A DNA stretch of 36,369 nt, taken from assembly GCA_030630005.1 (NCBI GenBank), contig DAOVNY010000001.1, positions 1 through 36,369 on the forward strand. The letters are read 5' to 3'. The stretch comes from Bacteroidales bacterium (GTDB lineage: Bacteria; Bacteroidota; Bacteroidia; Bacteroidales; JAIORY01). Every line of letters begins with the position of its first letter. Positions within the stretch are counted from its first letter, which is position 1. The translations under genes and the position numbers were made by a program. The notes under the pieces are model-generated. The model searched no databases. It was not told the DNA's origin and worked only from the letters and a program-made list of their open reading frames with translations. This document shows, one piece after another, positions 2 to 14,372 of this stretch.

Positions 2-1237
2 GAACAATACAGCATTGCCGAAGGAATAAAAACCAGTATTTCTAAACTGGGATACAAAAAACCCACCGACATTCAATATAAGTCTATTCCTCCAATCTTG
101 AGAGGAGAGGACGTTCTCGCCATTGCACAAACAGGCACAGGCAAAACAGCAGCTTTTGCCATACCTATTTTGCACATTTTGCAGGAACGTAAAATAAGCA
201 GTCGCCCGGATGGAGTAAAATGCCTGGTTATGGCACCTACGCATGAGTTGGCTTTGCAAATAGATTCTGTTTTTAAAACATTAGGAAAACATACAAGAAT
301 TACTTCTTTTTGCATTCATGGAGGTGTAGATCAGGAACCGCAAATTAAACAACTTAACAAAGGTGTGGATATATTAATTGCCACCCCCGGTAGAATGTTT
401 GATTTGGTAAGTCAGGGTGTGCTCATTTTGAGGCGGGTAGAAATTTTAGTTCTTGATGAAGCCGACCATATGCTCGACTTAGGTTTTATTAAAGACATAC
501 GCGATTTAATGCGTCATCTTCCCAGAAAACGCCAAACTCTTTTCTTTTCTGCAACCATCAACGATAAGATAAAGAAGCTCGCATATTCTTTAGTTACAGA
601 TGCTATACGTATTCAAATCTCACCAAAAGACCCCGTAGCAAAAAATATTGAACATGCTGTTGCTTTTATCGAAATGGACGACAAACGTTTCTTTTTAGAA
701 GACATGATAAAAAATAATCCGGAAAAGAAAATGTTAGTGTTTGTAAGGACCAAAGTACGAGCTGAGCGTGTAAAAAAAGCAATGGAAAGAGTTGATATCA
801 TAACAGATACAATTCATAGCGATAAAGAGCAGGAAGAACGCGAACGATGTATGAGAGGTTTTAGAAACGGAGAACTGAAAATTTTAATTGCCACCGATGT
901 TAGTGCCAGAGGAATTGACATACAGAATGTTGAATATGTAGTGAATTATGATTTGCCCGAATCTTTAGAAAATTATGTTCATAGAGTTGGTAGGACAGGG
1001 CGTGGAAGTCAAAAAGGACAAGCCGTTTCGTTTTGTAGTCCTGAAGAAAAAGAACTTTTGGCAGATATTGAAAAGAACCTTGGTAAAGCAATTAAAAGAA
1101 TAGAGATTTCAAAAAATGATTATAAATACACTTTGGACTTTACTGAAGATAAATCTCATGACTGGCAAAAGCTGATGAAAGAAATTGAATTAGAAGAAAA
1201 TACCCGGAAAAAGAGGAAGAAGAAATCTAAGAAATGA
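2..1237 (+). CDS. DEAD-box ATP-dependent RNA helicase (RhlE-like); 5' end cut by the window edge
   Basis: The frame is open from nt 2 (..GYKKPTDIQYKSIPPIL lies upstream of the TTG used by the ORF track). Motifs seen: Q motif PTDIQ, motif I AQTGTGKT, Ia PTHELA, II DEAD (LDEADHM), III SAT, V ARGID, VI HRVGRTGR. The C-terminal tail is Lys-rich. Confidence 0.93.
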   Translation, partial: EQYSIAEGIKTSISKLGYKKPTDIQYKSIPPILRGEDVLAIAQTGTGKTAAFAIPILHILQERKISSRPDGVKCLVMAPTHELALQIDSVFKTLGKHTRITSFCIHGGVDQEPQIKQLNKGVDILIATPGRMFDLVSQGVLILRRVEILVLDEADHMLDLGFIKDIRDLMRHLPRKRQTLFFSATINDKIKKLAYSLVTDAIRIQISPKDPVAKNIEHAVAFIEMDDKRFFLEDMIKNNPEKKMLVFVRTKVRAERVKKAMERVDIITDTIHSDKEQEERERCMRGFRNGELKILIATDVSARGIDIQNVEYVVNYDLPESLENYVHRVGRTGRGSQKGQAVSFCSPEEKELLADIEKNLGKAIKRIEISKNDYKYTLDFTEDKSHDWQKLMKEIELEENTRKKRKKKSKK

Positions 1238-1554: not shown

Positions 1555-4500
1555 ATGGCATTTTTCCAAAACTCAGTAATTAATAAACATCTCAAAGCAT
1601 TAGATAATGAAGTTGTAAAAGCTGCTTATGCTAAGTTTAAAGACTATTTTCACAATCCTGAAATACAAAAAAATATACGTGAAGCCAAAGAAGAGCAATT
1701 TCAGGAAGGTTTTTTAAGAGAACTTTTTGTAAAAATCTTGGGATACACACTAAACCCACAACCAAACTACAACCTTACTACCGAGCTTAAAAACGAAAAG
1801 GGAGCAAAAAAAACAGACGGAGCTATTTTACATGATGGCAAAGCTTTAGCAGTTATAGAATTGAAAGGAACCGATACAAAAGACCTGGATAAAATAAATG
1901 CTCAGGCTTTTAACTATAAAAACAACCAAACGGGCTGTATTTATGTTATCACTTCCAATTTTGAAAAGCTGCGTTTTTTTATTCACAACTCCGTTGACCA
2001 TGTAGAATTTAATCTGTTTACACTTACCGAACAGGAATTTGAATTGCTTTGGTTGTGCTTGAGTGCTGACAGTTTGTTAGGTGGTATTCCGCTAAAAGTT
2101 AAAGAAGAAAGTTTATTAGCAGAAGAAAACATTACCAAGCAACTGTATAAAGATTATTCTACCTTTAAAACTGACTTATGGCAAAACATGGTAAAAAACA
2201 GTCCTGAGGCTGACCAATTGTTGCTATTTAAGAAAACCCAAAAACTCTTAGACCGTTTTCTGTTCATCTTTTTTGCCGAAGATAGCGGTTTGTTGCCTCC
2301 AAATTCAATTTCACGAATTGTAAAGCGATGGAATGTTTTGCAAGAAGAAGATGCATATAAACCTTTATACAATATCTTTAAACAGTATTTTGGCTACATC
2401 AATACCGGAAGAAAAGGCAAAAGCTTTCAAGACGATATTTTTGCCTACAACGGTGGATTGTTTTTTCCAGATGAAGTTTTGGACAATATCTTAATTGATG
2501 ATGATGTTTTGCACTTGCATGTAATGAAACTAACGGCTTACGATTTTCAAAGTGATATAGATGTAAATATTCTGGGACATATATTTGAAAATTCTCTAAA
2601 CGAAATTGAAAATGTAATTGCCAGATTAGAAGGAAAAGAAGTTGACAAAAATAAAACAAAGCGAAAAAAAGACGGAGTTTTTTATACTCCAAAATACATT
2701 ACCAAATACATAGTTGAAAATACAGTTGGTAAACTTTGTGAAGAAAAGAAAGCCAAATTAGGTGTTGTAGATGAAGAATATGCTAAAGGTCGGCAAAACC
2801 GCAAAAAAGAAACCCTTAAGAAATTGGATAAAAGTCTGCAAGCATATCGTGAGTGGTTGTTAAAAATTACCATTTGCGACCCTGCTTGCGGTAGTGGAGC
2901 TTTTTTGAATCAGGCTTTAGAGTTTTTAATTACCGAGCACGCCTATATTGATGAATTACAAGCTCAACTCATTGGGGCAAGTATTGTATTTCAGGATGTA
3001 AGTAACCATATTTTAGAGAAAAATATTTTTGGTGTTGATATTAATGAAGAAAGCGTAGATATAGCCAAACTCTCTTTATGGCTGCGAACCGCACAAAAAG
3101 GAAGAAAACTTACCACCTTGAATAATAACCTCAAATGTGGCAACTCATTAATTGATGATGCGGCTGTGGCAGGGGAGAAAGCTTTTATCTGGCAAAAGGA
3201 GTTTCCTCAGATTTTTAAAGAAAAAGATAAAAAGGCATGGCATGTGGTATTTGCTATTCATAATTCACGTTATGTGAAATTTACCGACGGGTTAACCCGT
3301 CGGTTTAATCGGTTTGAACCCGGCTTTATTGCTTATACATATCCGAAATTAAACTTACATGAGGAAGAAATACTTGCAGACTGTTTGAATGAAGTTGTAA
3401 AAGAAAAGCAATTAAATATTTTAGCTTGTAATATTTGTGAAGATCATGTGCATGCAATAATTGTATGCGACAAAGAAGAACTTGAAAAAAACATTGGGCA
3501 ATGGAAAGGTCGCACTGCCTACCTGTATAACAGACGGGTTAACCCGTCTATAGATGATCAGCAGCCTGAATATGCCGATGGCACAAAGCAAAAACTTTGG
3601 GCAAAAAGTTTTCACCCTGTGGAAATTACGAATGATACCCAAATGCAAAACACTTTGCATTATATCAAAAACAACCGAGGAAAACATGAACTGCCTGCAC
3701 CAACCGACGGGTTAACCCGTCGGTTGAAAGAGATGACCTGCACACCCGAACACGCCTTCCGAACCGAATATAAAGGCGGTTTTGATGTGGTGATTGGAAA
3801 TCCGCCGTATGTACAGGAACAAATAAAAGATATACACAAGTCCTATTATCAGAATAATTATAAGACTATTGAAGGAAAACCAGATTTATATAGGATATTT
3901 ATTGAAAAAGGATTGAATTTAATTCACAAAGAGGGTTGCTTTTCATTCATCACTCCAAATTCATTCTTGACAATACCATCAGCGAATAAACTTAGGGAAT
4001 TGATCAAACAAGAATCAACTCTTAAAAAGATAATTAATTTTGAAGGAATGGTATTTGAAACAGCAAATATCAATACCGTGATATTTGTAATTAACAAACC
4101 ACAGAAAAAAATACCAGTAATAATTACAAATGACATTTCTACTTCACCCACTCCTGACAGCTTAGCTAACTCACTTAGTAAAAGTTTTGAGTTAAATTAT
4201 GAAGATTATATGAATGAATCTTCTATAAATGTAGAATTCAATAACCCTTTAGAAAAAAGCATTATTAAAAAACTTCACAGTTGTTCATGTAAATTGGCTG
4301 ATATTGCCGAATATACTCTTGGCCTACAGGTGTATCATAACACCATGCATAACAAAGATCAGATTAAGAATAGAATTTATCATAACATATCTAAGATCGA
4401 TAATAGTTACATTCCCGAAATAGGAGGCAGAAACATAGAAAGATATGGATTAGATGATAATTTCAAAGAATTTGTTTCTTATGGTGAATGGTGCTATAAT

Positions 4501-5136
4501 AAACCAGATCCTCGTTTTATTAGCGATAAGAGAATTTTAATAAGGGAAATACCCGGTCCTAATCATTTGATATGTACAATGTTTACAAAAGAAGGAATAC
4601 CTAATAAAGCCATAATAATCGTCCGATCAGATAAAGAAAATCAATATTCAATTTTAGGTGTTTTAAATTCAAGACTTATAGGTTATTACATTCACAAAAC
4701 TACAGAGAAAGGTAAGCAGAAATTATTTCCTCGAATTTCTCTTACATCCATAAAAAATCTGCCAATGCCCACAAAATTTAATAAGCAAATTGAAATAAAG
4801 GTTAGTAATATAATGTCGAAGAAAGAAGTTTTAACTAACTTGTTAACTAATTTTTTAAAGCTCTTAATATCAAGAGCCAATCTCGATAAACCTTCTAATA
4901 AGCTGAAACGATGGAATGAATTGGATTTTAAAGAGTTTTTAAAAGAATTAAAAAAAGCCAAAGTACAACTTAGCTTACCGGAAGAAGCAGAGTGGATGCA
5001 ATACTTTAACGAACAGAAACAAAAAGCACAAGAAATTAAATCAGAAATTGAGAAAACCGACAAAGAAATAGACCAAATGGTTTATGAGTTGTATGGGTTG
5101 ACGGAGGAGGAGATTGGAATAGTGGAGAAAAATTAG
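1555..5136 (+). CDS. Type IIG restriction-modification enzyme (Eco57I/MmeI-like fused PD-(D/E)XK nuclease + gamma-class N6-adenine methyltransferase + TaqI_C-like specificity domain) carrying a nested HUH transposase-like domain
   Basis: N-terminal D88..E102-L-K104 (TDGAIL..VIELKG) nuclease motif. FYTP. SAM motif I D442-PACGSGAF. Motif IV N749-PPY preceded by GGFDVVIG. C-terminal part LNSRLIGYY..KLFPRISLTSIKNLP resembles a TaqI_C-type TRD. Tail ends YELYGLTEEEI. About 180 extra codons sit between motif III and motif IV (see the mobile_element feature). Confidence 0.85.
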   Translation: MAFFQNSVINKHLKALDNEVVKAAYAKFKDYFHNPEIQKNIREAKEEQFQEGFLRELFVKILGYTLNPQPNYNLTTELKNEKGAKKTDGAILHDGKALAVIELKGTDTKDLDKINAQAFNYKNNQTGCIYVITSNFEKLRFFIHNSVDHVEFNLFTLTEQEFELLWLCLSADSLLGGIPLKVKEESLLAEENITKQLYKDYSTFKTDLWQNMVKNSPEADQLLLFKKTQKLLDRFLFIFFAEDSGLLPPNSISRIVKRWNVLQEEDAYKPLYNIFKQYFGYINTGRKGKSFQDDIFAYNGGLFFPDEVLDNILIDDDVLHLHVMKLTAYDFQSDIDVNILGHIFENSLNEIENVIARLEGKEVDKNKTKRKKDGVFYTPKYITKYIVENTVGKLCEEKKAKLGVVDEEYAKGRQNRKKETLKKLDKSLQAYREWLLKITICDPACGSGAFLNQALEFLITEHAYIDELQAQLIGASIVFQDVSNHILEKNIFGVDINEESVDIAKLSLWLRTAQKGRKLTTLNNNLKCGNSLIDDAAVAGEKAFIWQKEFPQIFKEKDKKAWHVVFAIHNSRYVKFTDGLTRRFNRFEPGFIAYTYPKLNLHEEEILADCLNEVVKEKQLNILACNICEDHVHAIIVCDKEELEKNIGQWKGRTAYLYNRRVNPSIDDQQPEYADGTKQKLWAKSFHPVEITNDTQMQNTLHYIKNNRGKHELPAPTDGLTRRLKEMTCTPEHAFRTEYKGGFDVVIGNPPYVQEQIKDIHKSYYQNNYKTIEGKPDLYRIFIEKGLNLIHKEGCFSFITPNSFLTIPSANKLRELIKQESTLKKIINFEGMVFETANINTVIFVINKPQKKIPVIITNDISTSPTPDSLANSLSKSFELNYEDYMNESSINVEFNNPLEKSIIKKLHSCSCKLADIAEYTLGLQVYHNTMHNKDQIKNRIYHNISKIDNSYIPEIGGRNIERYGLDDNFKEFVSYGEWCYNKPDPRFISDKRILIREIPGPNHLICTMFTKEGIPNKAIIIVRSDKENQYSILGVLNSRLIGYYIHKTTEKGKQKLFPRISLTSIKNLPMPTKFNKQIEIKVSNIMSKKEVLTNLLTNFLKLLISRANLDKPSNKLKRWNELDFKEFLKELKKAKVQLSLPEEAEWMQYFNEQKQKAQEIKSEIEKTDKEIDQMVYELYGLTEEEIGIVEKN
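3283..3305. repeat. Palindrome copy 1: ACCGACGGGTTAACCCGTCGGT(T), a 22-nt perfect palindrome
   Basis: It is self-complementary by direct reading and translated as TDGLTRR. It is identical over 23 nt to the copy at 3703-3725. Confidence 0.95.
3532..3549. repeat. Palindrome copy 2: AGACGGGTTAACCCGTCT, an 18-nt perfect palindrome
   Basis: It shares the 16-nt core GACGGGTTAACCCGTC with copies 1 and 3. It is read in a different frame (RRVNPS). Confidence 0.95.
3703..3725. repeat. Palindrome copy 3: ACCGACGGGTTAACCCGTCGGT(T)
   Basis: This is a 23-nt direct repeat of 3283-3305, offset by exactly 420 nt (140 codons), and again translated as TDGLTRR. Confidence 0.95.
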
Positions 5137-5282
5137 TATTAAATTATTTCCCATCTTATTCTGGAGTGCTCATTGAACTGTATCAGTACTTTAAATAAGT
5201 TCATTCTGAAACTTCGTTATCGTAATAATTCATGCATTGCGTTAACATTTTTCAATCGACAAGAGACTAATTCTTCTAAATC

Positions 5283-5290
5283 TATTTTTG
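5283..5290 (+). promoter_or_regulatory. Candidate Bacteroidota -7 promoter box TATTTTTG upstream of the C/vsr/dcm operon
   Basis: Exact match to the TAnnTTTG consensus, 172 nt upstream of the ATG at 5462. This is a motif match only. Confidence 0.25.
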
Positions 5291-5322
5291 AATATCTTTA
5301 ACGCCCTATTATATTTTGCTTA

Positions 5323-5372
5323 TATATTATAATACAATATAGAAATATATTATATTATAATATTGTATAATA
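5323..5372. promoter_or_regulatory. AT-rich direct/inverted repeat block; candidate operator (C-box-like) for the XRE gene
   Basis: TATATTATAATA occurs at 5323-5334 and 5351-5362. ATACAATAT (5332-5340) is the reverse complement of ATATTGTAT (5360-5368). The block lies between the candidate promoter box and the HTH gene. Confidence 0.3.
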
Positions 5373-5461
5373 CGTTTTTATGTTATAATTTCACAAAAAA
5401 AATAAATCTCTATTAAAGTACGATATTTTTTTGTATTAAAAAACTATGTAATAAATTACTA

Positions 5462-5682: not shown

Positions 5683-6099
5683 ATGGTTGATGTCCACACA
5701 AAAGAAACGAGAAGTTACAATATGAGCCGGATCAAAGGTAAGGATACAAAACCAGAGATATTGGTTAGAAAGTTCTTGTTTTCTCAGGGATTTAGATATC
5801 GGTTGCATGATAAAAAATTACCGGGAAAGCCGGATTTAGTTTTTCCTAAGTACAAGAAAGTTGTATTTATACACGGTTGTTACTGGCATGGACATGAAGG
5901 ATGTAAATATTTCGTTCCACCCAAAACAAGAACAGAATGGTGGATGGATAAGATTAATGATAATAAAACAAGAGACGAAAAAAATATAGCAGAACTAAAA
6001 AAGAATATGTGGTATCCTATTATTATTTGGGAATGTGAATTAAAACCTGAAAAAAGAGAAAAAACTCTGAAAGCTTTGGTTAGAAAATTGAAAAAATAA
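5683..6099 (+). CDS. vsr: Very short patch repair endonuclease Vsr
   Basis: RSYNMSRIKGKDTKPE..GFRYRLH..LPGKPDLVFPKYKKVVFIHGCYWHGH matches the Vsr signature. Its stop codon abuts the dcm ATG. Confidence 0.92.
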   Translation: MVDVHTKETRSYNMSRIKGKDTKPEILVRKFLFSQGFRYRLHDKKLPGKPDLVFPKYKKVVFIHGCYWHGHEGCKYFVPPKTRTEWWMDKINDNKTRDEKNIAELKKNMWYPIIIWECELKPEKREKTLKALVRKLKK

Positions 6100-7332
6100 A
6101 TGAGTGATATTAAGTACATAGATTTATTTGCCGGTGCCGGTGGCTTGTCAGAAGGATTCATCAGGCAAGGATATAAACCAGTTGCTCATGTAGAATATGA
6201 TAAAGCCGCTTGCTTTACATTAAAAACCAGAGTTGCATTTCATTATCTGGTTAAATCTGGCAGAGAAGATATTTATTATTCATATCTGAAAGGTGAAATC
6301 AGCAGGGAAAAATTGTACGCTTGTGTCCCCCGCGAATTATTGGATACTGTAATCAATGCTGAAATAGGAAAAGAAAACCTGAATATCTTCAAAGCAATAG
6401 ATAATACTTTAAAAGGGGAAAAGGTAGATTTAATTATAGGAGGACCGCCTTGTCAGGCATATTCAATTGTTGGTCGTGCTCCACTTAAACACAAGAAGAA
6501 TGATGAACGTACAAAGCTTTATATTCAGTATGGTAGATTTTTGAAGAAATACCAACCCAAACTGTTTATATTTGAAAATGTTCCGGGAATCCTTTCTGCT
6601 GCTAAAGGTATGTACTTTAAAAATCTTCAGAAATATTATAAGCAATTAGGTTATCAGGTAAAGGCCAGATTACTCAATTCTTATGACTATGGAGTTATCC
6701 AGAACCGGAAGAGAATTATAATTATTGGTTGGCAAAAAGACTTTGAATTTTTATATCCTGAAATACAATCTGCAAAAAACAAGTATTTCAGAGATGAGAT
6801 ATTTTCGGATTTACCAGCAATTGAACCGGGAGAATCAAAAAGAGTACAGAAATATACAGCTAACACAAATGACTATTTAAGCCAAACATTTATTAGAAAT
6901 GGAGTTGATTTTGTTACCCAACATATAACAAGACCTCACAACAAAAAGGATTTAAGTATTTATAAATTAGCCATTGAACGACTTGAAAAAGGTAAGCAAC
7001 TAAAGAACAATCAAATTCCTGATAGTATGAGAACGCAAAAGAATACAACTGATTTTCTTGATCGTTTCAAAGTTGTTGACAAAGAACCTCACACATTAAT
7101 TGCACATATTGCAAAAGACGGACATCATTTTATTCATCCTGACAAAAAGCAGCTACGATCTATTTCTGTGAGGGAAGCTGCAAGAATTCAGTCATTTCCG
7201 GATGGCTACTATTTTGAAGGAATTAAAGAAAATCAACCAAGAACAGCAGCTTTCAGGCAAATTGGAAATGCTGTTCCTCCATTGATGGCTGAAAGAATAG
7301 CTGATAAAATAAAAGAGTTTTGGCATGAATAA
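6100..7332 (+). CDS. dcm: DNA (cytosine-5)-methyltransferase
   Basis: Motif I DLFAGAGGLSEGF; IV GGPPC118QAYS; VI ENVPG; VIII QNRKRIIIIG; IX RSISVREAARIQSFPD; X QIGNAVPPLMA. Confidence 0.95.
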   Translation: MSDIKYIDLFAGAGGLSEGFIRQGYKPVAHVEYDKAACFTLKTRVAFHYLVKSGREDIYYSYLKGEISREKLYACVPRELLDTVINAEIGKENLNIFKAIDNTLKGEKVDLIIGGPPCQAYSIVGRAPLKHKKNDERTKLYIQYGRFLKKYQPKLFIFENVPGILSAAKGMYFKNLQKYYKQLGYQVKARLLNSYDYGVIQNRKRIIIIGWQKDFEFLYPEIQSAKNKYFRDEIFSDLPAIEPGESKRVQKYTANTNDYLSQTFIRNGVDFVTQHITRPHNKKDLSIYKLAIERLEKGKQLKNNQIPDSMRTQKNTTDFLDRFKVVDKEPHTLIAHIAKDGHHFIHPDKKQLRSISVREAARIQSFPDGYYFEGIKENQPRTAAFRQIGNAVPPLMAERIADKIKEFWHE

Positions 7333-9706
7333 AAATATAGAAAGTGTAATATCATTGGAAGTAGAAAAGAATTCCAATTTAGAATTTTCTTTCCAAGAAT
7401 TATTGGACAGTTCAACTTTAAAAATACTCAGACCTCCATCTTATGGCAGTTTATCTATTTATGATAATGTAATTAGTTATGAGCCAAAACCTAATTATAC
7501 AGGAGAGGACTTTTTTACTTACACCAATGAAAAAGAGTTAAGGGGGATTATTGCTCTCACCATAAAAGATACCGTATTTAACCCAAGAGCAAGACTTCTA
7601 ATTCAGCTTGGAAATCAGTTAATTAAAAACGAAAGTATTGCACTAATTGAACTTGCTAAAAATTCTTTCGATGCGGATGCAAGTTATTGCAACGTAACTT
7701 TGAAGCATGTGGAAGATAAAAATTCGGGTATAATTATGGTGGAGGATAATGGTTTTGGAATGGATATAAAAACTGTTAAAGATGTTTGGCTTGAGCCAGG
7801 AAGCGATAATAAGCAAATCCTAGTTAAGAAAAAGGAGGTTACGCCAAAATATAAAAGACTACCAATTGGAGAAAAAGGTATTGGTCGGTTTGGAGTTCAT
7901 AAGTTAGGTAAGAAAATTGAAATGGTTTCCCGAGCGAAAGGAAGCAAAGAAGTTGTTGTTAGAATAGATTGGGAGAAATTTAAAAAATTTAAGTACTTAA
8001 ATGAAGCCCCTGTTGAAGTGTTAGAAAGAGAACCTAAAACTTTTACTGCTGATGCTACTGGAACAAAGATTACTATAAGTAAGCTCACAAAAAACTGGAC
8101 TAAAGGAATGACAAGGGATGTTTTTCGTGCGCTTAATGGAATTTCCACACCTCCTACCTATGATATAGAAGATATTATTAATCCTGACTTGTTTTCAAAA
8201 TTACAAAAAAATAAAATCGATAGTTTTGAAGCTAATCTTTTAACAGATAGATCTGATTGGATTAAAAATATTCCTTCATGGAATAAAATACTTGAATATT
8301 CTTTGTTCTTTTTTGATATAGAAATTGATAATGACAAAATTACAAGTTTTAAATACAAATTCAAACCATGGGATAGATTTAGTGGAATTGAAGGGAGAGA
8401 AATAACCCACAAAGATTTACCTATTAAAGATTTGCTTGATATTTCAGATCCAACAAAAAGAAAGTTCGTTCCGTTGACTTTTGAAGGATTGAAAATAGGT
8501 AAGTTTCAGTTTAAAGGTTGTGTTTTCATTCGTGATCGTTTCGTTTTTAAACTTTTTAACATTCAGCAAACATCACTTACTGGTTATTTGGATAATAACG
8601 GAGGTATTAGAGTATATCGAAACGGAGTGAGGGTTTATGACTACGGTGAAAGGGAAAATGACTGGTTAGCTCTTGATTATAGGAGGTTCAATGACCCTGG
8701 AGTTAGATTGAGTAATAATCTAATGCTAGCTTCTATAAATCTTAGTAGAGAGAATAGTTCTGATCTTATTGAAAAAACTAACAGGGAAGGTTTTATTGAT
8801 AATGATGCTTATAACGTATTCAAAAAACAAATTACTTATTCGTTAAAGCTAATCGAATTATTAAGGTTAGAGGATAAGCGAAAAATTGATAATAAATACA
8901 AACCCAGGAAAGACACTGAACCAGTTCTCAAATCAATTGAAGGATTAAGATCTCTGGTAAGTGAAAAAGTTAAGGATAAGAAAATTCAAAAAGAGTTAAA
9001 GGTATACGTAGATCGTATCGAGAAGAATTACCGTTTTATGAATGATACATTGATGAAGACTGCTAGTGCAGGATTAGGATGGAGTGTATATATTCACGAA
9101 ATAGAGAAGATTATTGCTGAGATAATTAAGGTTCTTGAAAGGGATAAAGCGTCTGAACGAATAATGAAATTAACGGCTCATTTATCTGAACTAATTGAAA
9201 GCTATGCACAGATTTTAAGGCGTACAACAAGGAGTAGTCAAACTTTGTCCAAGGTTGTTGATCAGGCATTGTTTAATGTTGAATATCGCTTAAATGCGCA
9301 CGGTGTTAAAATTGAACGTCCTGATCTACAAAGAAGTTCGGTTAAAGTTTCTGTAGCCAGAAACCTTTTGGTTTCAAACATTATGAACATAATTGATAAT
9401 TCGATTTATTGGCTAGATAGGTCTCAAAAGAAAAACAAAATAATTCGATTCGACATTGCAGAAATTGAAGTAGGATATATTTCTCTGGTAATCTCAGATA
9501 ATGGAACAGGTTTCTCACTATCACCGGAACAAATGAAAGAGCCATTTGTTTCTGCAAAACCTGGGGGAATGGGTTTAGGACTCCATATTGTTTCAGAAGT
9601 AATGGCAAGTCATAAAGGGAAAGTTACATTTAATGAGGATGGCAATTATGAAGTGCCGAAAGGTTTTGTTGATGGAGCAACAGTAATACTAAATTTTAAA
9701 ATTTAG
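7325..9706 (+). CDS. Dual GHKL-ATPase protein: N-terminal Hsp90/MORC-type ATPase + DHp-like H-box + C-terminal histidine-kinase-type catalytic domain
   Basis: The start overlaps the dcm stop by 8 nt. N-terminal GHKL: ELAKN113SFDADA, VED141NGFGMD, GEKGIGRFG (182-190). H-box-like GLGWSVYIH591EIEKII. C-terminal CA: NIIDN692SIYW, SD725NGTGF, G747GMGLGLHIV. aa ~35-80 resemble an Ig/cadherin-like stub (GSLSIYDNVISYEPKPNYTGEDFFTYT). Confidence 0.7.
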   Translation: MNKNIESVISLEVEKNSNLEFSFQELLDSSTLKILRPPSYGSLSIYDNVISYEPKPNYTGEDFFTYTNEKELRGIIALTIKDTVFNPRARLLIQLGNQLIKNESIALIELAKNSFDADASYCNVTLKHVEDKNSGIIMVEDNGFGMDIKTVKDVWLEPGSDNKQILVKKKEVTPKYKRLPIGEKGIGRFGVHKLGKKIEMVSRAKGSKEVVVRIDWEKFKKFKYLNEAPVEVLEREPKTFTADATGTKITISKLTKNWTKGMTRDVFRALNGISTPPTYDIEDIINPDLFSKLQKNKIDSFEANLLTDRSDWIKNIPSWNKILEYSLFFFDIEIDNDKITSFKYKFKPWDRFSGIEGREITHKDLPIKDLLDISDPTKRKFVPLTFEGLKIGKFQFKGCVFIRDRFVFKLFNIQQTSLTGYLDNNGGIRVYRNGVRVYDYGERENDWLALDYRRFNDPGVRLSNNLMLASINLSRENSSDLIEKTNREGFIDNDAYNVFKKQITYSLKLIELLRLEDKRKIDNKYKPRKDTEPVLKSIEGLRSLVSEKVKDKKIQKELKVYVDRIEKNYRFMNDTLMKTASAGLGWSVYIHEIEKIIAEIIKVLERDKASERIMKLTAHLSELIESYAQILRRTTRSSQTLSKVVDQALFNVEYRLNAHGVKIERPDLQRSSVKVSVARNLLVSNIMNIIDNSIYWLDRSQKKNKIIRFDIAEIEVGYISLVISDNGTGFSLSPEQMKEPFVSAKPGGMGLGLHIVSEVMASHKGKVTFNEDGNYEVPKGFVDGATVILNFKI

Positions 9707-9709
9707 CAT

Positions 9710-11116
9710 ATGATTATACCAAAAAATGGGCGAGTGGTAATATTAGATGACAAAAAGGAACAGGCTTTTCCATTAATTAATATTTTGTCAAAAAATAAAA
9801 TTCCTTTTACTTATCATTCTGATGACATAGAACTTTTGCCAGATGTGGATCAGCAATATGATGATATTAGACTTCTATTTTTGGATGTAAATCTTTCAGC
9901 TGATGGAACACCAAAAGAAACCATAAAATCACAATTACAGTCTACGCTACAAAGAATTATTAAACCGGGGACTCCGTATATAGCAGCAATATGGAGTTTG
10001 AAAGAAAATGAATATGAAGACCTATTAAATGATCTATTTCAAAATCGCATTCCGGAAATTCAGCCCTTACTAAGAATATCATTGACTAAAAATGATTTTT
10101 TCGATTTGGTAAAATTTGATGAAGGAAAAGAAAATGAAAGATATGAATATGTTGAATGTGATGTAATTATGGATAAGCTAAACAGTAAGATTTTCGAATC
10201 CTTAAATCAATTAGATGCTTTGGAACCATTGATTAAATGGGAAAATATTATTCAAAATTCAATTTCTTCTGTTATTAGTGACATAATTGAAATCTCAAAA
10301 AAAGACCTGAATAACAATCTTAAAAAAATTTATTACAAGTTAGCTCAAGCATACTGGGGTAAACAACTTAAATCAAAAAGTGACAGTGAAATAACTCAGA
10401 AAGCTCTGCAGAGTTTAAATAACATTTTGATAGATAAAATTGAAAGCGATCTAAGAAACAAAGGTGATTTTGCATTAATTAATTGTGTCAATTACCCTGT
10501 CGAATTTGATATTAATTTTACAGCAATATTAAATTGTAAATTGTTGCTATCAATTGATAATTCAACTGAAATAGTTCCTGGTAATTTATATCAAATTGAT
10601 AATGACGATGTAAAAAAGAAAATCATTGAAGATGCTGTAGATCGAAGTCGTTTCATAAAAGATTATTCTCATGAAAATGGATTTAATCATGAAGATGTCA
10701 TTGATAAAGAAGGAAAGATAATAGAAAAACATAAGAAGTCATTTCAGAAATTTTCATTTAGACAAATACCCAAACTTATTGAAAGGGTGAAGTATATTGA
10801 AATAGAATTAACACCTATATGCGATTTTTCACAAAATAACTGGGTGCAAAACCGAATTTTGCCTGGAGTTTTAATATGTGAAAATGATGTAAAGTATTTG
10901 AAAAGTAATACTGATTATTTCTATTTATCACCAAGTATTATGTACGATGATATAATAGTCAGAATAATGCTTGATTTTAGGTTTTTGAAAGCAGAACCTT
11001 TTGAAAAATTCAAAGGTGTACAATCTATTTTTCGTCTAAAGCACTTAATATTTTCCGATATTCAATCTCAGCTTTCAAGGCATATAAATAGGCCGGGGGT
11101 AGTTTATGTAAATTAA
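9710..11116 (+). CDS. Receiver (CheY-like REC) domain protein with an uncharacterised ~330-aa C-terminal domain
   Basis: It starts 3 nt after the upstream stop. RVVILD13D14, IRLLFLD59VNLSADG, YIAAIWS96 and LRISLTK127 reproduce the spacing of the CheY D12/D13/D57/T87/K109 residues. I recognise no motif in the rest of the protein. Confidence 0.5.
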   Translation: MIIPKNGRVVILDDKKEQAFPLINILSKNKIPFTYHSDDIELLPDVDQQYDDIRLLFLDVNLSADGTPKETIKSQLQSTLQRIIKPGTPYIAAIWSLKENEYEDLLNDLFQNRIPEIQPLLRISLTKNDFFDLVKFDEGKENERYEYVECDVIMDKLNSKIFESLNQLDALEPLIKWENIIQNSISSVISDIIEISKKDLNNNLKKIYYKLAQAYWGKQLKSKSDSEITQKALQSLNNILIDKIESDLRNKGDFALINCVNYPVEFDINFTAILNCKLLLSIDNSTEIVPGNLYQIDNDDVKKKIIEDAVDRSRFIKDYSHENGFNHEDVIDKEGKIIEKHKKSFQKFSFRQIPKLIERVKYIEIELTPICDFSQNNWVQNRILPGVLICENDVKYLKSNTDYFYLSPSIMYDDIIVRIMLDFRFLKAEPFEKFKGVQSIFRLKHLIFSDIQSQLSRHINRPGVVYVN

Positions 11117-11886
11117 TGATGGCAAAAAATAATTGGACAAAGAAAGAACATATTGTTGCATTCAATCTTTATTGTAAGATTCCATTCACTAAGATAAATG
11201 CAACTTATCCTCCTGTCAAAGAATTGGCTAAAATAATAGGCCGTTCAAACGGCTCTGTAGCCATGAAACTTGCCAATTTTGCAAGGCTTGATCCGGCTTT
11301 AAAAGCAAGAGATGTTTCTGGTTTAACACAAGGTGCAAAGGGAGAAGAAGTAGTTTGGGCTGAATTCAATGGAAACTGGGAGGAACTTGCTTGGCAAAGT
11401 GAAAAAATATTGGCTAGTTACAAAAATGAACCTATTGAGGTAACAACTGAAATTATTACAGATGATTTACCATCGGAAGGAAAAGAAAAAGAAGCAGTTG
11501 TTAAAACAAGAGTTAACCAATCATTTTTCAGAAAGACAATTCTGGCATCATATAATTACAGTTGTTGTATAACCGGTATTTCAATTCAGGAATTGCTTAT
11601 TGCAAGCCATATTATTCCATGGTCAGTGAATAAAGAAAGTAGAATGAATCCATCAAACGGTCTTTGTCTTAATTCACTCCACGACAAAGCATTTGATAAA
11701 GGATTGATAACAGTTACTCCTGACTACCGAATTAAATTATCAGAAGTTATTTTACATAATCGAAATACAGAAACTTCAGGATTCTTTTTACCATATGAAA
11801 ATAAACCTATTAGACTTCCGCAAAAGTTCTATCCGGAAAAGGAATTTCTCAAATGGCACAATAAAAATGTTTTCATTGACTCATAA
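11116..11886 (+). CDS. HNH endonuclease (HNH_2 / COG3183-type predicted restriction endonuclease)
   Basis: TAATG overlap with the upstream gene. The N-terminal region RSNGSVAMKLANFARLDP is typical of COG3183. The C-terminal region is QSFFRKTILASYNYSCCITG..LLIASH165IIPW..N181GLCLNSLH189DKAFDKGLI. Confidence 0.8.
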   Translation: MMAKNNWTKKEHIVAFNLYCKIPFTKINATYPPVKELAKIIGRSNGSVAMKLANFARLDPALKARDVSGLTQGAKGEEVVWAEFNGNWEELAWQSEKILASYKNEPIEVTTEIITDDLPSEGKEKEAVVKTRVNQSFFRKTILASYNYSCCITGISIQELLIASHIIPWSVNKESRMNPSNGLCLNSLHDKAFDKGLITVTPDYRIKLSEVILHNRNTETSGFFLPYENKPIRLPQKFYPEKEFLKWHNKNVFIDS

Positions 11887-11980: not shown

Positions 11981-12820
11981 ATGTCTTTAAAAATTGCCAT
12001 TGCATACGATTTTGACGGTACACTGTCGCCAGGCAATATGCAGGAACATTCATTTATTCCCAAACTAAGAATTAATAAAGATGCTTTTTGGAAGAAGGCA
12101 AATGCCAAAGCAAAGCAACAAGATATGGACGAAGTACTGGCATATATGCAACTAATGCTTCAAAAAGCCGATGAAAAAAATATTCCTATCACAAAAAAAG
12201 CTTTTTTTGATCATGGCAAAGAAATAGTTTTTTTTGAAGGTGTTTATAACTTTTTTAACAGGATAAATAAGTACGCAGCAGAAAGAAATGTCAAAATCGA
12301 ACATTATATAATTTCTTCGGGCATTAGAGATATTATTAAAGGAACATCCATAGCAAAATTTTTTACAAATATTTTTGCTTCCGGCTTTGTGTTTGATGCA
12401 AACGATGTGGCGGTATGGCCGGCTCTGGCAATCAATTATACTAATAAAACCCAATATCTTTTCAGAATAAATAAAGGAATTAATAATTCTTATGATAATA
12501 CTAAAATCAACAAATTTGTAGAGTACGACAAACGACCAATACCTTTTTCGCGTATGATTTACATCGGCGATGGAGAAACTGATGTGCCTGCTATGAAAAT
12601 GATAAAATATCGTGGCGGCACTGCAATTGCTGTTTACGATCCCAAAAAAGAAAAGAAAAATGATAAATTATCACCTAAACAAATCTGCGAAAAACTAATC
12701 GAACAACAACGGGCAGATTTTATAGCTTCTGCTGATTATACTAAAAATTCTAAGCTTGATAATATTATTAAAACTTTGATAAATAAAATTGTTGAAGAGG
12801 AAAAACTTAAGCTTTTTTAA
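11981..12820 (+). CDS. HAD-superfamily hydrolase/phosphatase
   Basis: Motif I AYDFDGTLS; motif II IISSG; motif IV YIGDGETDVPAM. Confidence 0.75.
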   Translation: MSLKIAIAYDFDGTLSPGNMQEHSFIPKLRINKDAFWKKANAKAKQQDMDEVLAYMQLMLQKADEKNIPITKKAFFDHGKEIVFFEGVYNFFNRINKYAAERNVKIEHYIISSGIRDIIKGTSIAKFFTNIFASGFVFDANDVAVWPALAINYTNKTQYLFRINKGINNSYDNTKINKFVEYDKRPIPFSRMIYIGDGETDVPAMKMIKYRGGTAIAVYDPKKEKKNDKLSPKQICEKLIEQQRADFIASADYTKNSKLDNIIKTLINKIVEEEKLKLF

Positions 12821-12852: not shown

Positions 12853-13018
12853 AACATTGAGTCCACTCCGAAAAGTCATTTGTTTTGGACTAAAGTCCAT
12901 AAACACCTAATAATCAATAGCCCCGACCTTAAGGTCGGGGTAAGTCAAATGGTTGATAATACGGGCTTTAGCCCAAAAGAAATTTAATTTATAGACTTTT
13001 CTGAGTGGACTCAACATT
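12853..13018. repeat. Structured palindromic element (MITE/REP-cluster-like or ncRNA): a long outer stem enclosing three short hairpins
   Basis: The outer arms TTGAGTCCACTCcGAAAAGTC (12857-12877) and GACTTTTCtGAGTGGACTCAA (12994-13014) form 21 bp with one mismatch. The inner hairpins are TGGACT-AA-AGTCCA (12886-12899), CCCCGACCTTAAGGTCGGGG (12921-12940, a perfect 20-nt palindrome) and GGGCT-TT-AGCCC (12963-12974). Confidence 0.7.
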
Positions 13019-13190: not shown

Positions 13191-14372
13191 TTATAAGTTC
13201 TTTAGTTTTTCTGAAACTTCATTATATTTTTCAACATTACCTCTTCTGGAGTAAATTTGTTTTAACGAGAACAAAGTGCTATAATCATCAGGCTGTAATT
13301 CGTAAGCTTTTTCAAGAATCGGAAGTGATTTATTCATAAAATCATCGCCTATATTTTTCAATTTATCGTAATTTTCATCACCAAAAGGTAATACATCAGC
13401 TTTAAGAATATTATTTACTCCTCTGTTAAAATATAATGCTCCAAGATTATAAATGGCATCAAAGAAATCAGACTGAAGTTCTATAGCTTTTTTATATGCT
13501 TTTTCCGCTTCTATAAATGCATCATCTTGTTCTTTTTCTGTTTTTATTGTATCATTAACAATTCTATCATACATAGAACCAACTGCGGAATATATTGAAG
13601 CATTTGTTGTATCGGTTTTAAGTGCTTGTTTCAAATTATCAAGGGCTTTTCCGGTTTCTCCTGCATTTAACAATAAGTTAGTTTCAGTAATTAAAATAGG
13701 AAAATCTTCAGGGTATCTCTCCCTACCTATTTGAATGTATTCCAATGCCTTAACAGAGTCACCTTCAACTTTATAATAATCAGTCAAGGTAATATACATT
13801 ACGGAATTATTGTAATTATAATCAATCAACATTGCATATCTTTTCTTTGCAAGATCATAATTTTTAGCTAATCCAGCAGAGATAGCCGAATTAAATAAGG
13901 CACCTGTATCAATATTTGTTTTTGATATGTCTTTATTTACTCCAAACGCATTGAAAAAATTAATAGAAGCATCGTTATATTCCTTTGCATTATAATATCT
14001 TACAGCTTTATTATAATATTGTTCTGCACAAGCTATTATTCTTGGTAAAATATCAGTAAGAAATCTACCTTTAGTATCAAGTTCGCGAGCTTTAATATAA
14101 GATGCAAGGGCTTTATCTATACATTCCGGATCGATATCCTTATATTTTTCGTTATCTGTCATAGCTATTTCAAGATAAATATTTCCCCTGTAATACCATG
14201 TTTTAGCATCGTTAATTGTTTTTTCATGCTTTGCAGCAGCATCTATACAATTTTTTGCTTTGTCTAATTTTCCATGACTTAAGTGGTTATATGCACTTGT
14301 TCTTTTTGAATTTTGTGCGAAAATTGAACCGGCTGTCATTAAAATGATCAATAAAATTGCAATTTTTTTCAT
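13191..14372 (-). CDS. Secreted tetratricopeptide-repeat (TPR) protein
   Basis: Signal peptide MKKIAILLIILMTAGSIFA. Repeated A/Y/N-rich TPR-like helices are present (YYRGNIYLE, AVRYYNAKEYNDA, YNLGALYFNRG). Confidence 0.7.
   Translation of the reverse strand: MKKIAILLIILMTAGSIFAQNSKRTSAYNHLSHGKLDKAKNCIDAAAKHEKTINDAKTWYYRGNIYLEIAMTDNEKYKDIDPECIDKALASYIKARELDTKGRFLTDILPRIIACAEQYYNKAVRYYNAKEYNDASINFFNAFGVNKDISKTNIDTGALFNSAISAGLAKNYDLAKKRYAMLIDYNYNNSVMYITLTDYYKVEGDSVKALEYIQIGRERYPEDFPILITETNLLLNAGETGKALDNLKQALKTDTTNASIYSAVGSMYDRIVNDTIKTEKEQDDAFIEAEKAYKKAIELQSDFFDAIYNLGALYFNRGVNNILKADVLPFGDENYDKLKNIGDDFMNKSLPILEKAYELQPDDYSTLFSLKQIYSRRGNVEKYNEVSEKLKNL

What the first reader, a model, noticed from the sequence alone, without database searches (positions are those of the whole stretch)
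3283..3725. Three GC-rich GACGGGTTAACCCGTC palindromes inside the nested transposase domain, two of them identical 23-mers exactly 140 codons apart
Seen in sequence: ACCGACGGGTTAACCCGTCGGTT occurs at 3283-3305 and at 3703-3725, an offset of 420 nt. Both copies are translated as TDGLTRR. A third copy, AGACGGGTTAACCCGTCT at 3532-3549, is read in another frame. Each is a perfect palindrome able to form an 8-9 bp hairpin with a TTAA centre, which is very unusual in this AT-rich genome. Copies 1 and 3 bracket the HUH motif and the catalytic Tyr. Established knowledge: RAYT and IS200/IS605 transposases recognise hairpins flanking their own gene. Inference: these may be the cognate REP-like sites of the embedded HUH domain. 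The two identical copies also allow in-frame deletion of the catalytic core by replication slippage or HUH-mediated excision, which would amount to a genetic switch on the R-M enzyme.
Basis: partly seen in the sequence, partly recalled or inferred. Interest (0 to 1): 0.7.

Follow-up and report, generated by a model that had tools for sequence, protein, structure and literature searches.

The report
REP hairpins inside a nested transposase domain
Three identical GC-rich palindromes inside a restriction enzyme gene belong to a small hairpin repeat family scattered through Bacteroidota genomes, and they sit in-frame inside the transposase-like domain that most likely recognises them; this arrangement is known for free-standing transposases of this type but apparently not for one nested in a restriction-modification gene.

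Summary
GACGGGTTAACCCGTC occurs three times (3286, 3533, 3706), in two reading frames, and nowhere else in the 36 kb window.

The palindromes lie in a 552-bp in-frame cassette (3220-3771). It encodes a RAYT-like Y1 HUH domain and sits one codon upstream of the GGFDVVIGNPPY block (methyltransferase motif IV, NPPY) of a Type IIG restriction-modification gene (1555-5136).

The same core, extended to AAC[C/T/A]GACGGGTTAACCCGTC[G/A/T]GTT, is a dispersed and mostly extragenic repeat in many Bacteroidota and Chlorobiota genomes.

In 84 related cassettes, 70 carry perfect GC-rich palindromes at the same three sites. The sequence differs between Y1 lineages. Within a locus the copies usually share one sequence, often read in different frames. 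Selection therefore acts on DNA, and the repeat type tracks the Y1 domain. The REP-like, cognate-site reading is supported.

The proposed 420-bp deletion switch is not supported:
- no such allele was seen;
- the spacing is 423 nt in the closest relative;
- most cassettes carry a single palindrome.

In-frame cognate REPs inside RAYT genes are already described (TnpA_REP subclass 2.4). The new parts are the nesting in a restriction-modification gene, the cassette's separate evolutionary history and the GACG/CGTC-footed repeat family. I class it as a new variant of a known kind.

The parts
1555..5136 (+). Host gene: a 1193-aa single-polypeptide Type IIG/IIL restriction-modification enzyme. It has an N-terminal nuclease, an MmeI-like helical spacer, a gamma-class N6-adenine methyltransferase and a TaqI_C-type specificity domain.
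   Evidence: Pfam hits are Eco57I 1.7e-43, N6_Mtase, MmeI_Mtase, MmeI_hel and TaqI_C. The D88/E102/K104, DPACGSGAF and NPPY motifs are intact and invariant in alignment A1.
3220..3771 (+). In-frame 552-bp cassette (E556-Y739) encoding a RAYT-like Y1 HUH domain. It lies between ...EFPQIFK and KGGFDVVIGNPPY (motif IV).
   Evidence: Pfam Y1_Tnp scores 1.2e-10. The NCBIfam RAYT model scores 54.9 bits and the IS200 model 35.9, both below cut-off. The AF2 model has pLDDT 79, and the 30 best Foldseek PDB hits are all Y1 transposases. The empty allele L203 reads FPEIFD|KGGFD. Nucleotide identity to L001 jumps from about 65-70% to 92-100% across roughly 3200-3800.
3283..3304 (.). REP copy 1 (site A): the 22-nt perfect palindrome ACCGACGGGTTAACCCGTCGGT, read as TDGLTRR, just after strand beta-1.
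   Evidence: It falls in a low-confidence loop of the model (residues 17-41 of the cassette). The homologous site survives in L001, L085 (CTGAC...GTCAG, a compensatory change) and L024, and has decayed in L123 and L002.
3442..3453 (+). HUH motif DHVH (aa 630-633).
   Evidence: D76, H77 and H79 are invariant in cassette alignment A2.
3532..3549 (.). REP copy 2 (site B): the 18-nt perfect palindrome AGACGGGTTAACCCGTCT, read in a different frame as RRVNPS, between the HUH and Tyr motifs.
   Evidence: Site B is the commonest palindrome site in relatives, present in 56 of 84 cassettes. It lies at the end of a helix that leads into a disordered loop.
3661..3687 (+). Catalytic-tyrosine motif YIKNNRGKH (Y703).
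   Evidence: Y149, I150, N153, R154, K156 and H157 are invariant in A2.
3701..3726 (.). REP copy 3 (site C): the 26-nt perfect palindrome CAACCGACGGGTTAACCCGTCGGTTG, read as TDGLTRR, after the tyrosine helix. It matches the full consensus of the dispersed family.
   Evidence: The family consensus is AAC[C/T/A]GACGGGTTAACCCGTC[G/A/T]GTT.
3775..3810 (+). GGFDVVIGNPPY, methyltransferase motif IV, starting one codon after the cassette.
   Evidence: In the solved homologue CamA (7lni), query residue 532 aligns to chain residue 152 and query residue 736 to chain residue 153, so the cassette has no counterpart there.

Best explanation
The three palindromes are in-frame copies of a REP-type hairpin repeat with the 24-nt consensus AAC[C/T/A]GACGGGTTAACCCGTC[G/A/T]GTT. 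They are lodged in three insertion-tolerant segments of a RAYT-like Y1 HUH domain. That domain is itself a 552-bp in-frame cassette inside a Type IIG restriction-modification gene.

Most likely they are the cognate single-strand DNA hairpins that this HUH domain binds and nicks. They accumulate in and next to its own gene, as REPs cluster around RAYT genes in REPtrons. Because they lie in a coding sequence, only copies that are a multiple of three in length and fall in one of the two stop-free frames survive, giving TDGLTRR or RRVNPS.

Shown:
- the repeat is a dispersed DNA element;
- selection acts on the DNA palindrome rather than the peptide;
- the repeat type tracks the Y1 lineage;
- the cassette and the host gene have different histories.

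Inferred:
- the domain actually binds and cleaves these hairpins;
- it is the enzyme that spreads them.
For: (1) Dispersal. Most come from Bacteroidales, Bacteroidota and Chlorobiota MAGs, with 4-8 separate stretches from single MAGs such as JAHYJL01, NBLH01, CAZAZE01, CAZREZ01 and RPRQ01. Of 133 copies, 86 lie in no open frame of 100 or more codons. Only a handful of these loci are R-M genes.

(2) DNA-level selection. Positions outside the searched core extend the palindrome to 12-bp arms in most copies. Pair 9 is C:G in 59 copies, T:A in 41, A:T in 11 and G:C in 6, out of 132. In the window the same DNA is read in two frames.

(3) Generality. Of 84 related cassettes, 70 carry at least one perfect GC-rich palindrome with arms of 8 bp or more: at site B in 56, site C in 23 and site A in 7. 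Density is 1.85 per kb in cassettes against 0.14 per kb in flanks. Of 18 loci with two or more palindromes, 14 repeat the same core, 11 of them in different frames, for example TREHAPLS and NKGACSLV.

(4) Lineage specificity. All cassettes of the window's Y1 clade (DHVHAI, WAKS[FY]: window, L001, L002, L024, L085, L117, L123) carry the GACGGG...CCCGTC type, perfect or slightly decayed. The other clade (WTQKF) carries CAAGGGG-N6-CCCCTTG types, and none of its exact cores is the GACGGG type. Free-standing subclass-2.4-like RAYTs found in two of the REP-bearing MAGs (L035, L045) carry other in-frame palindromes, such as GTAGAGACGCAAAATTTTGCGTCTCTAC.

(5) The repeats do not track the enzyme's specificity domain. 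The window and L001 share identical palindromes, yet their C-terminal halves are 38% identical.

(6) The domain looks active. It has a Y1 fold and invariant HUH and Tyr motifs.

(7) In L024 two further copies lie 64 and 324 nt past the stop codon of the R-M gene.

(8) Precedent. [quoted passage not shown]
Against: - There is no biochemical evidence that this domain binds or cuts these hairpins.
- The window holds no copy outside the gene (36 kb), so dispersal in this particular genome is unproven.
- The link between REP-rich genomes and the window-type Y1 clade is incomplete. One MAG with at least 6 GACGGG copies (NBLH01) shows, in the part seen, an R-M cassette of the other clade (L030). For most REP-rich MAGs I could not see whether a window-type cassette is present.
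- The domain scores below the curated cut-offs of both the RAYT and the IS200 models.
- Perfect palindromes are also what a dimeric double-strand DNA-binding protein would recognise.
Confidence: 0.68

Rival explanations
1. Copies 1 and 3 are the left-end and right-end subterminal hairpins of an IS200/IS605-like element, namely the cassette itself, and serve for its own single-strand excision and insertion into R-M genes.
For: The cassette has a presence/absence polymorphism with clean empty sites. It forms a sharply bounded block of high identity to L001. Its history is discordant with that of the host gene (r = 0.28 over 1596 pairs). Copies 1 and 3 lie near its two ends.
Against: The hairpins sit 63 nt and 45 nt inside the cassette boundaries, within the folded domain. 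Of 84 cassettes, 52 carry only one palindrome, usually the central site B, so paired end hairpins are not a family feature. The Y motif lacks the Q at Y+4 that marks IS200 transposases, and the IS200 model scores 35.9 against a cut-off of 55. The junctions show only an ambiguous AAA. Exchange by homologous recombination in the highly conserved flanks explains the mosaic pattern equally well.
Confidence: 0.1
2. One reading: the two identical 23-mers exist to allow reversible or programmed in-frame deletion of the 420-bp catalytic core, toggling the enzyme.
For: Two perfect 23-nt direct repeats 420 nt apart and in the same frame can in principle recombine or slip. The product would stay in frame.
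Against: No such product was seen among the 84 cassette loci, although these were retrieved by similarity to the cassette. The 10 cassette-free homologues I read show no residual REP or remnant at the site. A protein search with the predicted deletion product returned only unrelated short fragments. The spacing differs in the nearest relative (423 nt). Most lineages have one palindrome. A deletion is irreversible, so it is not a switch, and it would leave about 44 foreign residues rather than restore the empty site.
Confidence: 0.05
3. The palindromes act at the duplex DNA or mRNA level, independently of the HUH domain. They could be binding sites for a dimeric regulator or nucleoid protein, or mRNA hairpins that modulate stability or translation of the R-M transcript.
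For: They are perfect dyad symmetries. REPs in enterobacteria are known from general knowledge to bind host proteins and stabilise transcripts. Di Nocera et al. argue that many REPs act as RNA elements (PMC3733652).
Against: The repeat sequence tracks the Y1 clade rather than the host gene or its specificity domain. Palindrome density is 13-fold higher in the cassette than in its flanks. Cassette-free alleles of the same gene mostly lack them.
Confidence: 0.12
4. The repeats reflect a protein-level motif (TDGLTRR) duplicated for structural reasons, or they are chance or assembly artefacts.
For: TDGLTRR-like peptides recur at sites A and C in the clade.
Against: The same 16 nt encode RRVNPS at site B. 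The same DNA occurs in non-coding DNA of many genomes. None of 100 shuffles reached three matches. An independent assembly (L001) carries the same three copies.
Confidence: 0.02

Closest known systems
TnpA_REP (RAYT) subclass 2.4 with REPs inserted in-frame inside the tnpA_REP gene (Quentin, Siguier, Chandler, Fichant 2018, PMC6006769)
   Same: [quoted passage not shown] Both have symmetric 'double foot' palindromes. The taxa include Bacteroidetes. The Y motifs are close: YIxNN(P) there and YIxNN(R) here.
   Different: Here the motifs are DH[VIM]H, W[AT] and YIxNNRxKH rather than NH[IFV]H, WQ and YIxNNP. The feet are GACG/CGTC or CAAGGGG/CCCCTTG rather than GT[AG]G/C[TC]AC. The domain has no gene of its own in these loci: it is nested in-frame in a 1200-aa R-M enzyme, and that study discarded unexpectedly long fusion proteins. 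REPs also decorate the host R-M gene outside the domain.
Classical REP/REPIN-RAYT systems (REPtrons) of Proteobacteria; E. coli TnpA_REP bound to a REP hairpin (PDB 4er8)
   Same: Both involve short GC-rich hairpin repeats that are dispersed and mostly extragenic, associated with a single Y1 HUH protein and clustered at its gene. The repeat and the protein co-vary between lineages.
   Different: There is no GTAG tag. The palindromes are perfect rather than imperfect. The repeats lie inside rather than beside the gene. The cassette shows horizontal movement between host genes, whereas classical RAYTs are described as mostly vertically inherited.
CGTC-tagged REPs (Di Nocera, De Gregorio, Rocco 2013, PMC3733652)
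   Same: Both are palindromic repeats ending in CGTC and are reported in Bacteroidetes and Chlorobi among other phyla. Some copies lie in-frame inside genes. That paper states these repeats lack a dedicated transposase.
   Different: I could not compare consensus sequences, because the figures are not held and the supplements contain no matching sequence. Here CGTC and its complement GACG form part of the stem on both sides. Membership is therefore untested.
IS200/IS605 insertion sequences (IS608, ISDra2)
   Same: They share the Y1 HUH fold (the best Foldseek hits), hairpin recognition on single-stranded DNA, and an element of about 0.5 kb bounded near its ends by similar hairpins.
   Different: The cassette has no promoter, start codon or stop codon of its own. 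The Y motif is not Y---Q. It scores below the IS200 model cut-off. Hairpins are not consistently present at both ends across the family. No multi-copy identical elements were seen.
Inteins and other homing elements in conserved motifs of essential or conserved genes
   Same: Both are in-frame insertions at one fixed position next to a highly conserved catalytic motif (NPPY). They are sporadically present among close homologues, leave clean empty alleles and have a phylogeny discordant with the host gene.
   Different: No Hint or splicing domain was detected, so the domain presumably stays in the mature protein. The nuclease is HUH type rather than LAGLIDADG or HNH. The homing mechanism is not shown.

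Membership tests
REP/REPIN-RAYT system (REPtron) | Short GC-rich palindromic repeat present in many copies per genome, mostly extragenic | tested here: met
   This is met in other genomes. The scan returned 120 or more stretches, with up to 8 stretches per MAG, and 86 of 133 copies lie outside any ORF of 100 or more codons. It is not testable for the window's own genome, where the 36 kb holds no copy outside the gene.
REP/REPIN-RAYT system (REPtron) | Associated Y1 HUH protein that scores as a RAYT | tested here: inconclusive
   The fold and the HUH and Tyr motifs are present. The RAYT model is the best NCBIfam hit, but at 54.9 bits it is below the 80-bit cut-off.
REP/REPIN-RAYT system (REPtron) | Cognate REPs flank the RAYT gene | tested here: inconclusive
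   In the window the copies are inside the domain rather than beside it. In L024 two copies lie 64 and 324 nt downstream of the gene, and in other loci they lie elsewhere in the R-M gene.
REP/REPIN-RAYT system (REPtron) | Conserved GTAG tetranucleotide at the 5' foot, the RAYT cleavage tag | tested here: not met
   The feet are GACG...CGTC and no GTAG is present.
REP/REPIN-RAYT system (REPtron) | The protein binds and cleaves its REP as single-stranded DNA | not testable with these tools
   This needs biochemistry.
TnpA_REP subclass 2.4 (Quentin et al. 2018) | Motifs NH[IFV]H, WQ and YIxNNP | tested here: not met
   The window has DHVH, WA and YIKNNR. The family has DH[VIM]H, W[AT][KQ] and YIxNNRxKH. 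The motif table comes from PMC6006769.
TnpA_REP subclass 2.4 (Quentin et al. 2018) | Cognate REPs inserted in-frame within the gene, generally between HuH and Y; 'double foot' symmetry | tested here: met
   Site B lies between HUH and Tyr in 56 of 84 cassettes. The palindromes are perfect with symmetric feet.
IS200/IS605 insertion sequence | TnpA scores as IS200 and has the Y---Q motif | tested here: not met
   NF033573 scores 35.9 bits against a cut-off of 55. The residue at Y+4 is N rather than Q.
IS200/IS605 insertion sequence | Subterminal hairpins at both ends of an autonomous element that has its own ORF | tested here: not met
   The cassette has no start or stop codon of its own. Of 84 cassettes, 52 have a single, central palindrome.
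CGTC-tagged REP superfamily (Di Nocera et al. 2013) | Terminal CGTC tag, 8-9 bp stem, 4-5 nt loop, A/T pairs at the stem base, CCA tail | tested here: inconclusive
   CGTC is present at the 3' end of the core, with GACG at the 5' end, and the extended stem ends in two A:T pairs.
Type IIG/IIL restriction-modification enzyme (Eco57I/MmeI-like) | Single polypeptide with N-terminal nuclease, gamma-class N6-adenine methyltransferase (motif I, motif IV NPPY) and C-terminal specificity domain | tested here: met
   Pfam hits are Eco57I, N6_Mtase, MmeI_Mtase, MmeI_hel and TaqI_C. The motifs are intact. Enzyme activity was not tested.
Intein | Hint or splicing domain with conserved junction residues | tested here: not met
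   There is no Hint-family hit in Pfam. The junctions read K|E...Y|K.

The most novel reading that the evidence does not exclude
The cassette is a non-splicing, in-frame homing element. In this reading, a RAYT-like HUH domain carrying its own hairpins invades one fixed codon position just upstream of motif IV in Type IIG restriction-modification genes, uses the host gene for expression, and is the missing dedicated mobilising enzyme for GACG/CGTC-footed REP families of Bacteroidota and Chlorobiota. A further possibility, which the data neither exclude nor support, is that the chimera couples hairpin or single-strand DNA recognition to restriction or modification.
Probability: 0.25. Interest if true: 0.8.

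Novelty: new variant of a known kind. Interest (0 to 1): 0.6.

Why it matters
What RAYTs do, and how REPs spread, remain open questions. Here the Y1 domain, its presumed substrate hairpins and a well-understood reporter enzyme sit in one polypeptide and one gene. That gives a compact system for testing hairpin binding, nicking and mobilisation.

The finding also links a GACG/CGTC-footed repeat family in Bacteroidota and Chlorobiota to a specific Y1 clade. An earlier survey found no dedicated transposase for CGTC-tagged repeats.

The fixed insertion point next to NPPY, the clean empty alleles and the discordant history suggest a mode of spread resembling intein homing but based on an HUH nuclease. 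If confirmed, that would be a new way for a transposase to persist.

For annotation, it explains why about half of this R-M family is 180-280 residues longer and carries odd low-complexity peptides such as TDGLTRR, TRGHAPLS and NKGLQPLV.

Tried and rejected
- Exact look-up of the window protein in public assemblies found nothing, so the source genome could not be scanned.
- A protein search with the predicted 420-bp deletion product scored only 40 candidates, and the hits I read were short R-M gene fragments. This neither finds nor rules out such alleles.
- I looked for a target-site duplication or IS-like ends at the cassette junctions. Only an ambiguous shared AAA (Lys codon) is present.
- I considered that the palindrome holds the enzyme's own recognition site. 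This is rejected because the window and L001 share the palindromes but have different specificity domains (38% identity).
- I considered a peptide repeat. This is rejected by the frame change at copy 2 and by the non-coding copies elsewhere.
- I looked for free-standing RAYTs of the same clade next to the dispersed copies, in about 0.9 Mb of REP-adjacent DNA. Only R-M-nested ones turned up, plus two distant subclass-2.4-like RAYTs with other REPs.
- I could not obtain the published CGTC-REP consensus sequences.
- Literature searches for the R-M/Y1 fusion found no description. JGI's automatic annotation does label such proteins 'methylase subunit/REP element-mobilizing transposase RayT'.
Full report
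**1. The observation**

GACGGGTTAACCCGTC occurs at 3286-3301, 3533-3548 and 3706-3721. It occurs nowhere else in the window, even allowing three mismatches, and none of 100 dinucleotide-preserving shuffles gave three matches.

- The 23-mer ACCGACGGGTTAACCCGTCGGTT is identical at 3283-3305 and 3703-3725, and the repeat does not extend further.
- The maximal perfect palindromes are 22, 18 and 26 nt.
- As single-stranded DNA they form hairpins of -11.0, -6.8 and -13.7 kcal/mol, well below shuffled controls.
- All three lie in ORF 1555-5136. Copies 1 and 3 are read as TDGLTRR and copy 2, in another frame, as RRVNPS.
- The window is 32% G+C and has only one other comparable GC-rich palindrome, of unrelated sequence, at 12921-12940.

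**2. The setting**

The ORF is a 1193-aa single-chain Type IIG/IIL restriction-modification enzyme, with Pfam hits to Eco57I, N6_Mtase, MmeI_Mtase, MmeI_hel and TaqI_C. A Y1_Tnp (PF01797) domain is nested in it.

- Alignment with homologues shows that the nested part is a discrete insert, E556-Y739 (nt 3220-3771). It lies between ...EFPQIFK and KGGFDVVIGNPPY, one codon before methyltransferase motif IV.
- In the solved homologue CamA, the residues on either side of this region are adjacent.
- By my count, 63 of the 120 best homologues carry PF01797 and are about 1150-1300 aa. The rest are about 1000-1065 aa. In the 13 of these that I read (three in alignment A1, ten fetched separately), the site is a clean empty one reading FP.xF.KGGFD.
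- The domain has the Y1 fold. The AF2 model has pLDDT 79, and the 30 best PDB matches are all IS200/IS605 or RAYT transposases.
- It has invariant HUH (DH.H) and YIxxNRxKH motifs.
- It scores best against NCBI's RAYT model (54.9 bits) and less well against IS200 (35.9 bits), below both cut-offs.

**3. The palindrome is a dispersed REP-type repeat**

- Apart from scattered single hits in unrelated phyla, which chance can explain, the stretches come from Bacteroidales, Bacteroidota and Chlorobiota MAGs. Often 4-8 separate stretches come from one MAG.
- The flanks, which were not part of the search pattern, extend the palindrome to AAC[C/T/A]GACGGGTTAACCCGTC[G/A/T]GTT.
- The ninth pair is C:G in 59 copies, T:A in 41, A:T in 11 and G:C in 6, out of 132. 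This is covariation that keeps the stem.
- Of 133 copies, 86 lie in no open frame of 100 or more codons, and one locus has six copies in a 60-bp tandem array.
- Only a few of these loci are R-M genes.

For this genome it cannot be answered: the window holds no further copy, and the source assembly could not be identified.

**4. Palindromes are a general, lineage-specific feature of the cassette**

I collected 80 further cassette loci from metagenomes. With the window and three other loci, 84 were analysed.

- Seventy carry at least one perfect GC-rich palindrome with arms of 8 bp or more.
- These sit at three recurrent places: after strand beta-1 (site A, 7 loci), between HUH and Tyr (site B, 56 loci) and after the tyrosine helix (site C, 23 loci).
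- Density is 1.85 per kb in cassettes against 0.14 per kb in the flanks. Most flank copies are of the same family and lie in the R-M gene at recurrent offsets.
- The sequence differs between Y1 lineages:
  - GACGGGTTAACCCGTC in the window's clade;
  - ACAAGGGGGCATGCCCCCTTGT, ACAAGGGAGCATGCTCCCTTGT, CAAGGGGCTTAAGCCCCTTG, ACAAGGGGTTGCAACCCCTTGT and others in the second clade.
- Within a locus the copies usually share one sequence: 14 of the 18 loci with two or more copies repeat the same core. In 11 of those 14 the copies are read in different frames, for example TREHAPLS and NKGACSLV.
- Within the window's clade, sites A, B and C are homologous across relatives that are about 60% identical. They show compensatory changes (CCGAC...GTCGG against CTGAC...GTCAG) and partial decay in some lineages.
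- The window and L001 share identical palindromes although their specificity halves are only 38% identical. The repeats therefore follow the Y1 domain rather than the enzyme's target recognition.
- Two free-standing RAYTs found in REP-bearing MAGs have the motifs of published subclass 2.4. They carry different in-frame palindromes of the GTAG double-foot kind. Each Y1 type thus has its own repeat.

**5. The cassette has its own history**

- Against L001, nucleotide identity is about 65-70% along the gene but 92-100% from about 3200 to 3800.
- At the protein level the values are 70% for the N-terminal part, 92% for the cassette and 38% for the C-terminal part.
- The closest N-terminal relative (L203, 87%) has no cassette.
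- L183 is 87% identical in the flank but carries a cassette of the other clade, at 41% identity.
- Over 1596 pairs of loci, flank identity and cassette identity correlate only weakly (r = 0.28).

The cassette therefore moves between R-M genes, or is exchanged by recombination in the very conserved flanks. The data do not distinguish the two.

**6. Mechanism**

The best-supported reading is that the palindromes are the cognate hairpins of the nested HUH domain. They would have been captured in-frame in tolerant segments of its own coding sequence.

- Copies 1 and 2 fall in low-confidence loops of the model. Copy 3 falls in a helix after the catalytic helix.
- The palindrome has two stop-free frames on either strand, which explains the two peptides.

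This much is shown: DNA-level constraint, dispersal, lineage specificity, and an intact catalytic motif set. Binding, cleavage and mobilisation by this domain are inferred.

The idea that copies 1 and 3 are the IS-like ends of the cassette is unlikely. Most cassettes have a single central palindrome, and the hairpins lie inside the fold, 63 and 45 nt from the junctions.

The deletion switch is not supported:
- No such allele was seen, although the dedicated search was weak.
- The spacing is 423 nt in L001.
- The product would not restore the empty site.

A role at the duplex DNA or mRNA level cannot be excluded, but it does not explain the tie to the Y1 clade.

**7. Comparison with what is known**

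- Quentin et al. 2018 describe exactly this kind of in-frame cognate REP inside tnpA_REP genes of subclass 2.4, mostly between HuH and Y, and also describe 'double foot' REPs. They set aside unusually long fusion proteins (PMC6006769).
- The present domain does not have the subclass 2.4 motifs (DHVH, WA and YIKNNR against NH.H, WQ and YIxNNP), and its repeats have GACG/CGTC or CAAGGGG feet rather than GTAG.
- Di Nocera et al. 2013 report CGTC-tagged REPs in Bacteroidetes and Chlorobi and state that they lack a dedicated transposase (PMC3733652). I could not test whether the present family belongs to theirs.
- I found no paper describing a Y1 domain nested in a Type IIG enzyme. Automatic annotation does already show the two domains in one protein.

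**8. Verdict**

The REP-like interpretation is supported and the switch interpretation is not. The phenomenon, cognate REPs in-frame in a RAYT-like gene, is known. The nested, apparently mobile R-M context, the distinct Y1 clade and its repeat families make this a new variant of a known kind, of moderate to good interest.

Noticed in passing
window 12921-12940: This is a different 20-nt perfect GC-rich palindrome, CCCCGACCTTAAGGTCGGGG, also with a TTAA centre. It lies in the gap between convergent genes 11981-12820 (+) and 13191-14372 (-). It is terminator-like on the minus strand and could be a plain terminator or another repeat family.
   Followed up: partly
window 5683-11886: Directly downstream of the R-M gene lie Vsr (5683-6099), a Dcm-type C5 methyltransferase (6100-7332), a 793-aa protein with two GHKL ATPase domains (7325-9706), a 468-aa protein with no Pfam hit (9710-11116) and an HNH_2 protein (11116-11886). 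Together they look like a defence island whose last three genes are uncharacterised.
   Followed up: partly
L001 407-430: The closest cassette-bearing relative has a fourth copy of the repeat (AACTGACGGGTTAACCCGTCAGTT). It is inserted in-frame (STDGLTRQL) in the N-terminal nuclease domain. Other homologues show different short inserts at the same spot (GGAEGRGKE, QDPLSIPK, LNPLA).
   Followed up: partly
L113 4647-4662: This R-M homologue has no Y1 cassette but still carries the GACGGGTTAACCCGTC repeat in-frame, about 170 codons into its N-terminal part. The repeats therefore also reach cassette-free alleles.
   Followed up: no
L002 about 5150-5400 (same as L051): Site C is expanded into a run of repeat-derived peptides, STDGVPY three times and TDGLTRQL three times, with three exact copies of the core. 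This lengthens the cassette to 258 aa.
   Followed up: partly
L040 143-548: Six copies of the repeat are arranged in a 60-bp tandem array in non-coding DNA of a Bacteroidales MAG. The arrangement resembles BIME-like REP clusters.
   Followed up: no
L003 5811-5890: This is an orphan fragment of about 90 nt, homologous (76%) to window 3260-3348, that is, copy 1 with part of its coding flanks. It sits in a short gap between convergent, unrelated genes, which suggests that pieces of the cassette around a hairpin can be moved elsewhere.
   Followed up: partly
L035 6593-7204 (+) and L045 about 197-857 (-): These are free-standing RAYT genes with the published subclass 2.4 motifs (NH.H, WQS, YIKNNP). 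They carry their own in-frame palindromes: GTAGAGACGCAAAATTTTGCGTCTCTAC and GAGACGCACGGCTGTGCGTCTC.
   Followed up: partly
L124-L202, offsets about -80, -620, -1050, -1450 and +1150 to +1320 from the cassette: Palindromes of the cassette's own type recur in-frame at a few fixed positions elsewhere in the R-M gene in many loci. This indicates recurrent hot spots or ancient shared insertions.
   Followed up: partly
window 1555-5136 and homologues P0001-P0120: The R-M family is mosaic. The first 550 residues are 80-88% identical between proteins whose specificity halves are only 35-58% identical, and the last 60 residues or so are conserved again. This suggests frequent swapping of the specificity module.
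   Followed up: no
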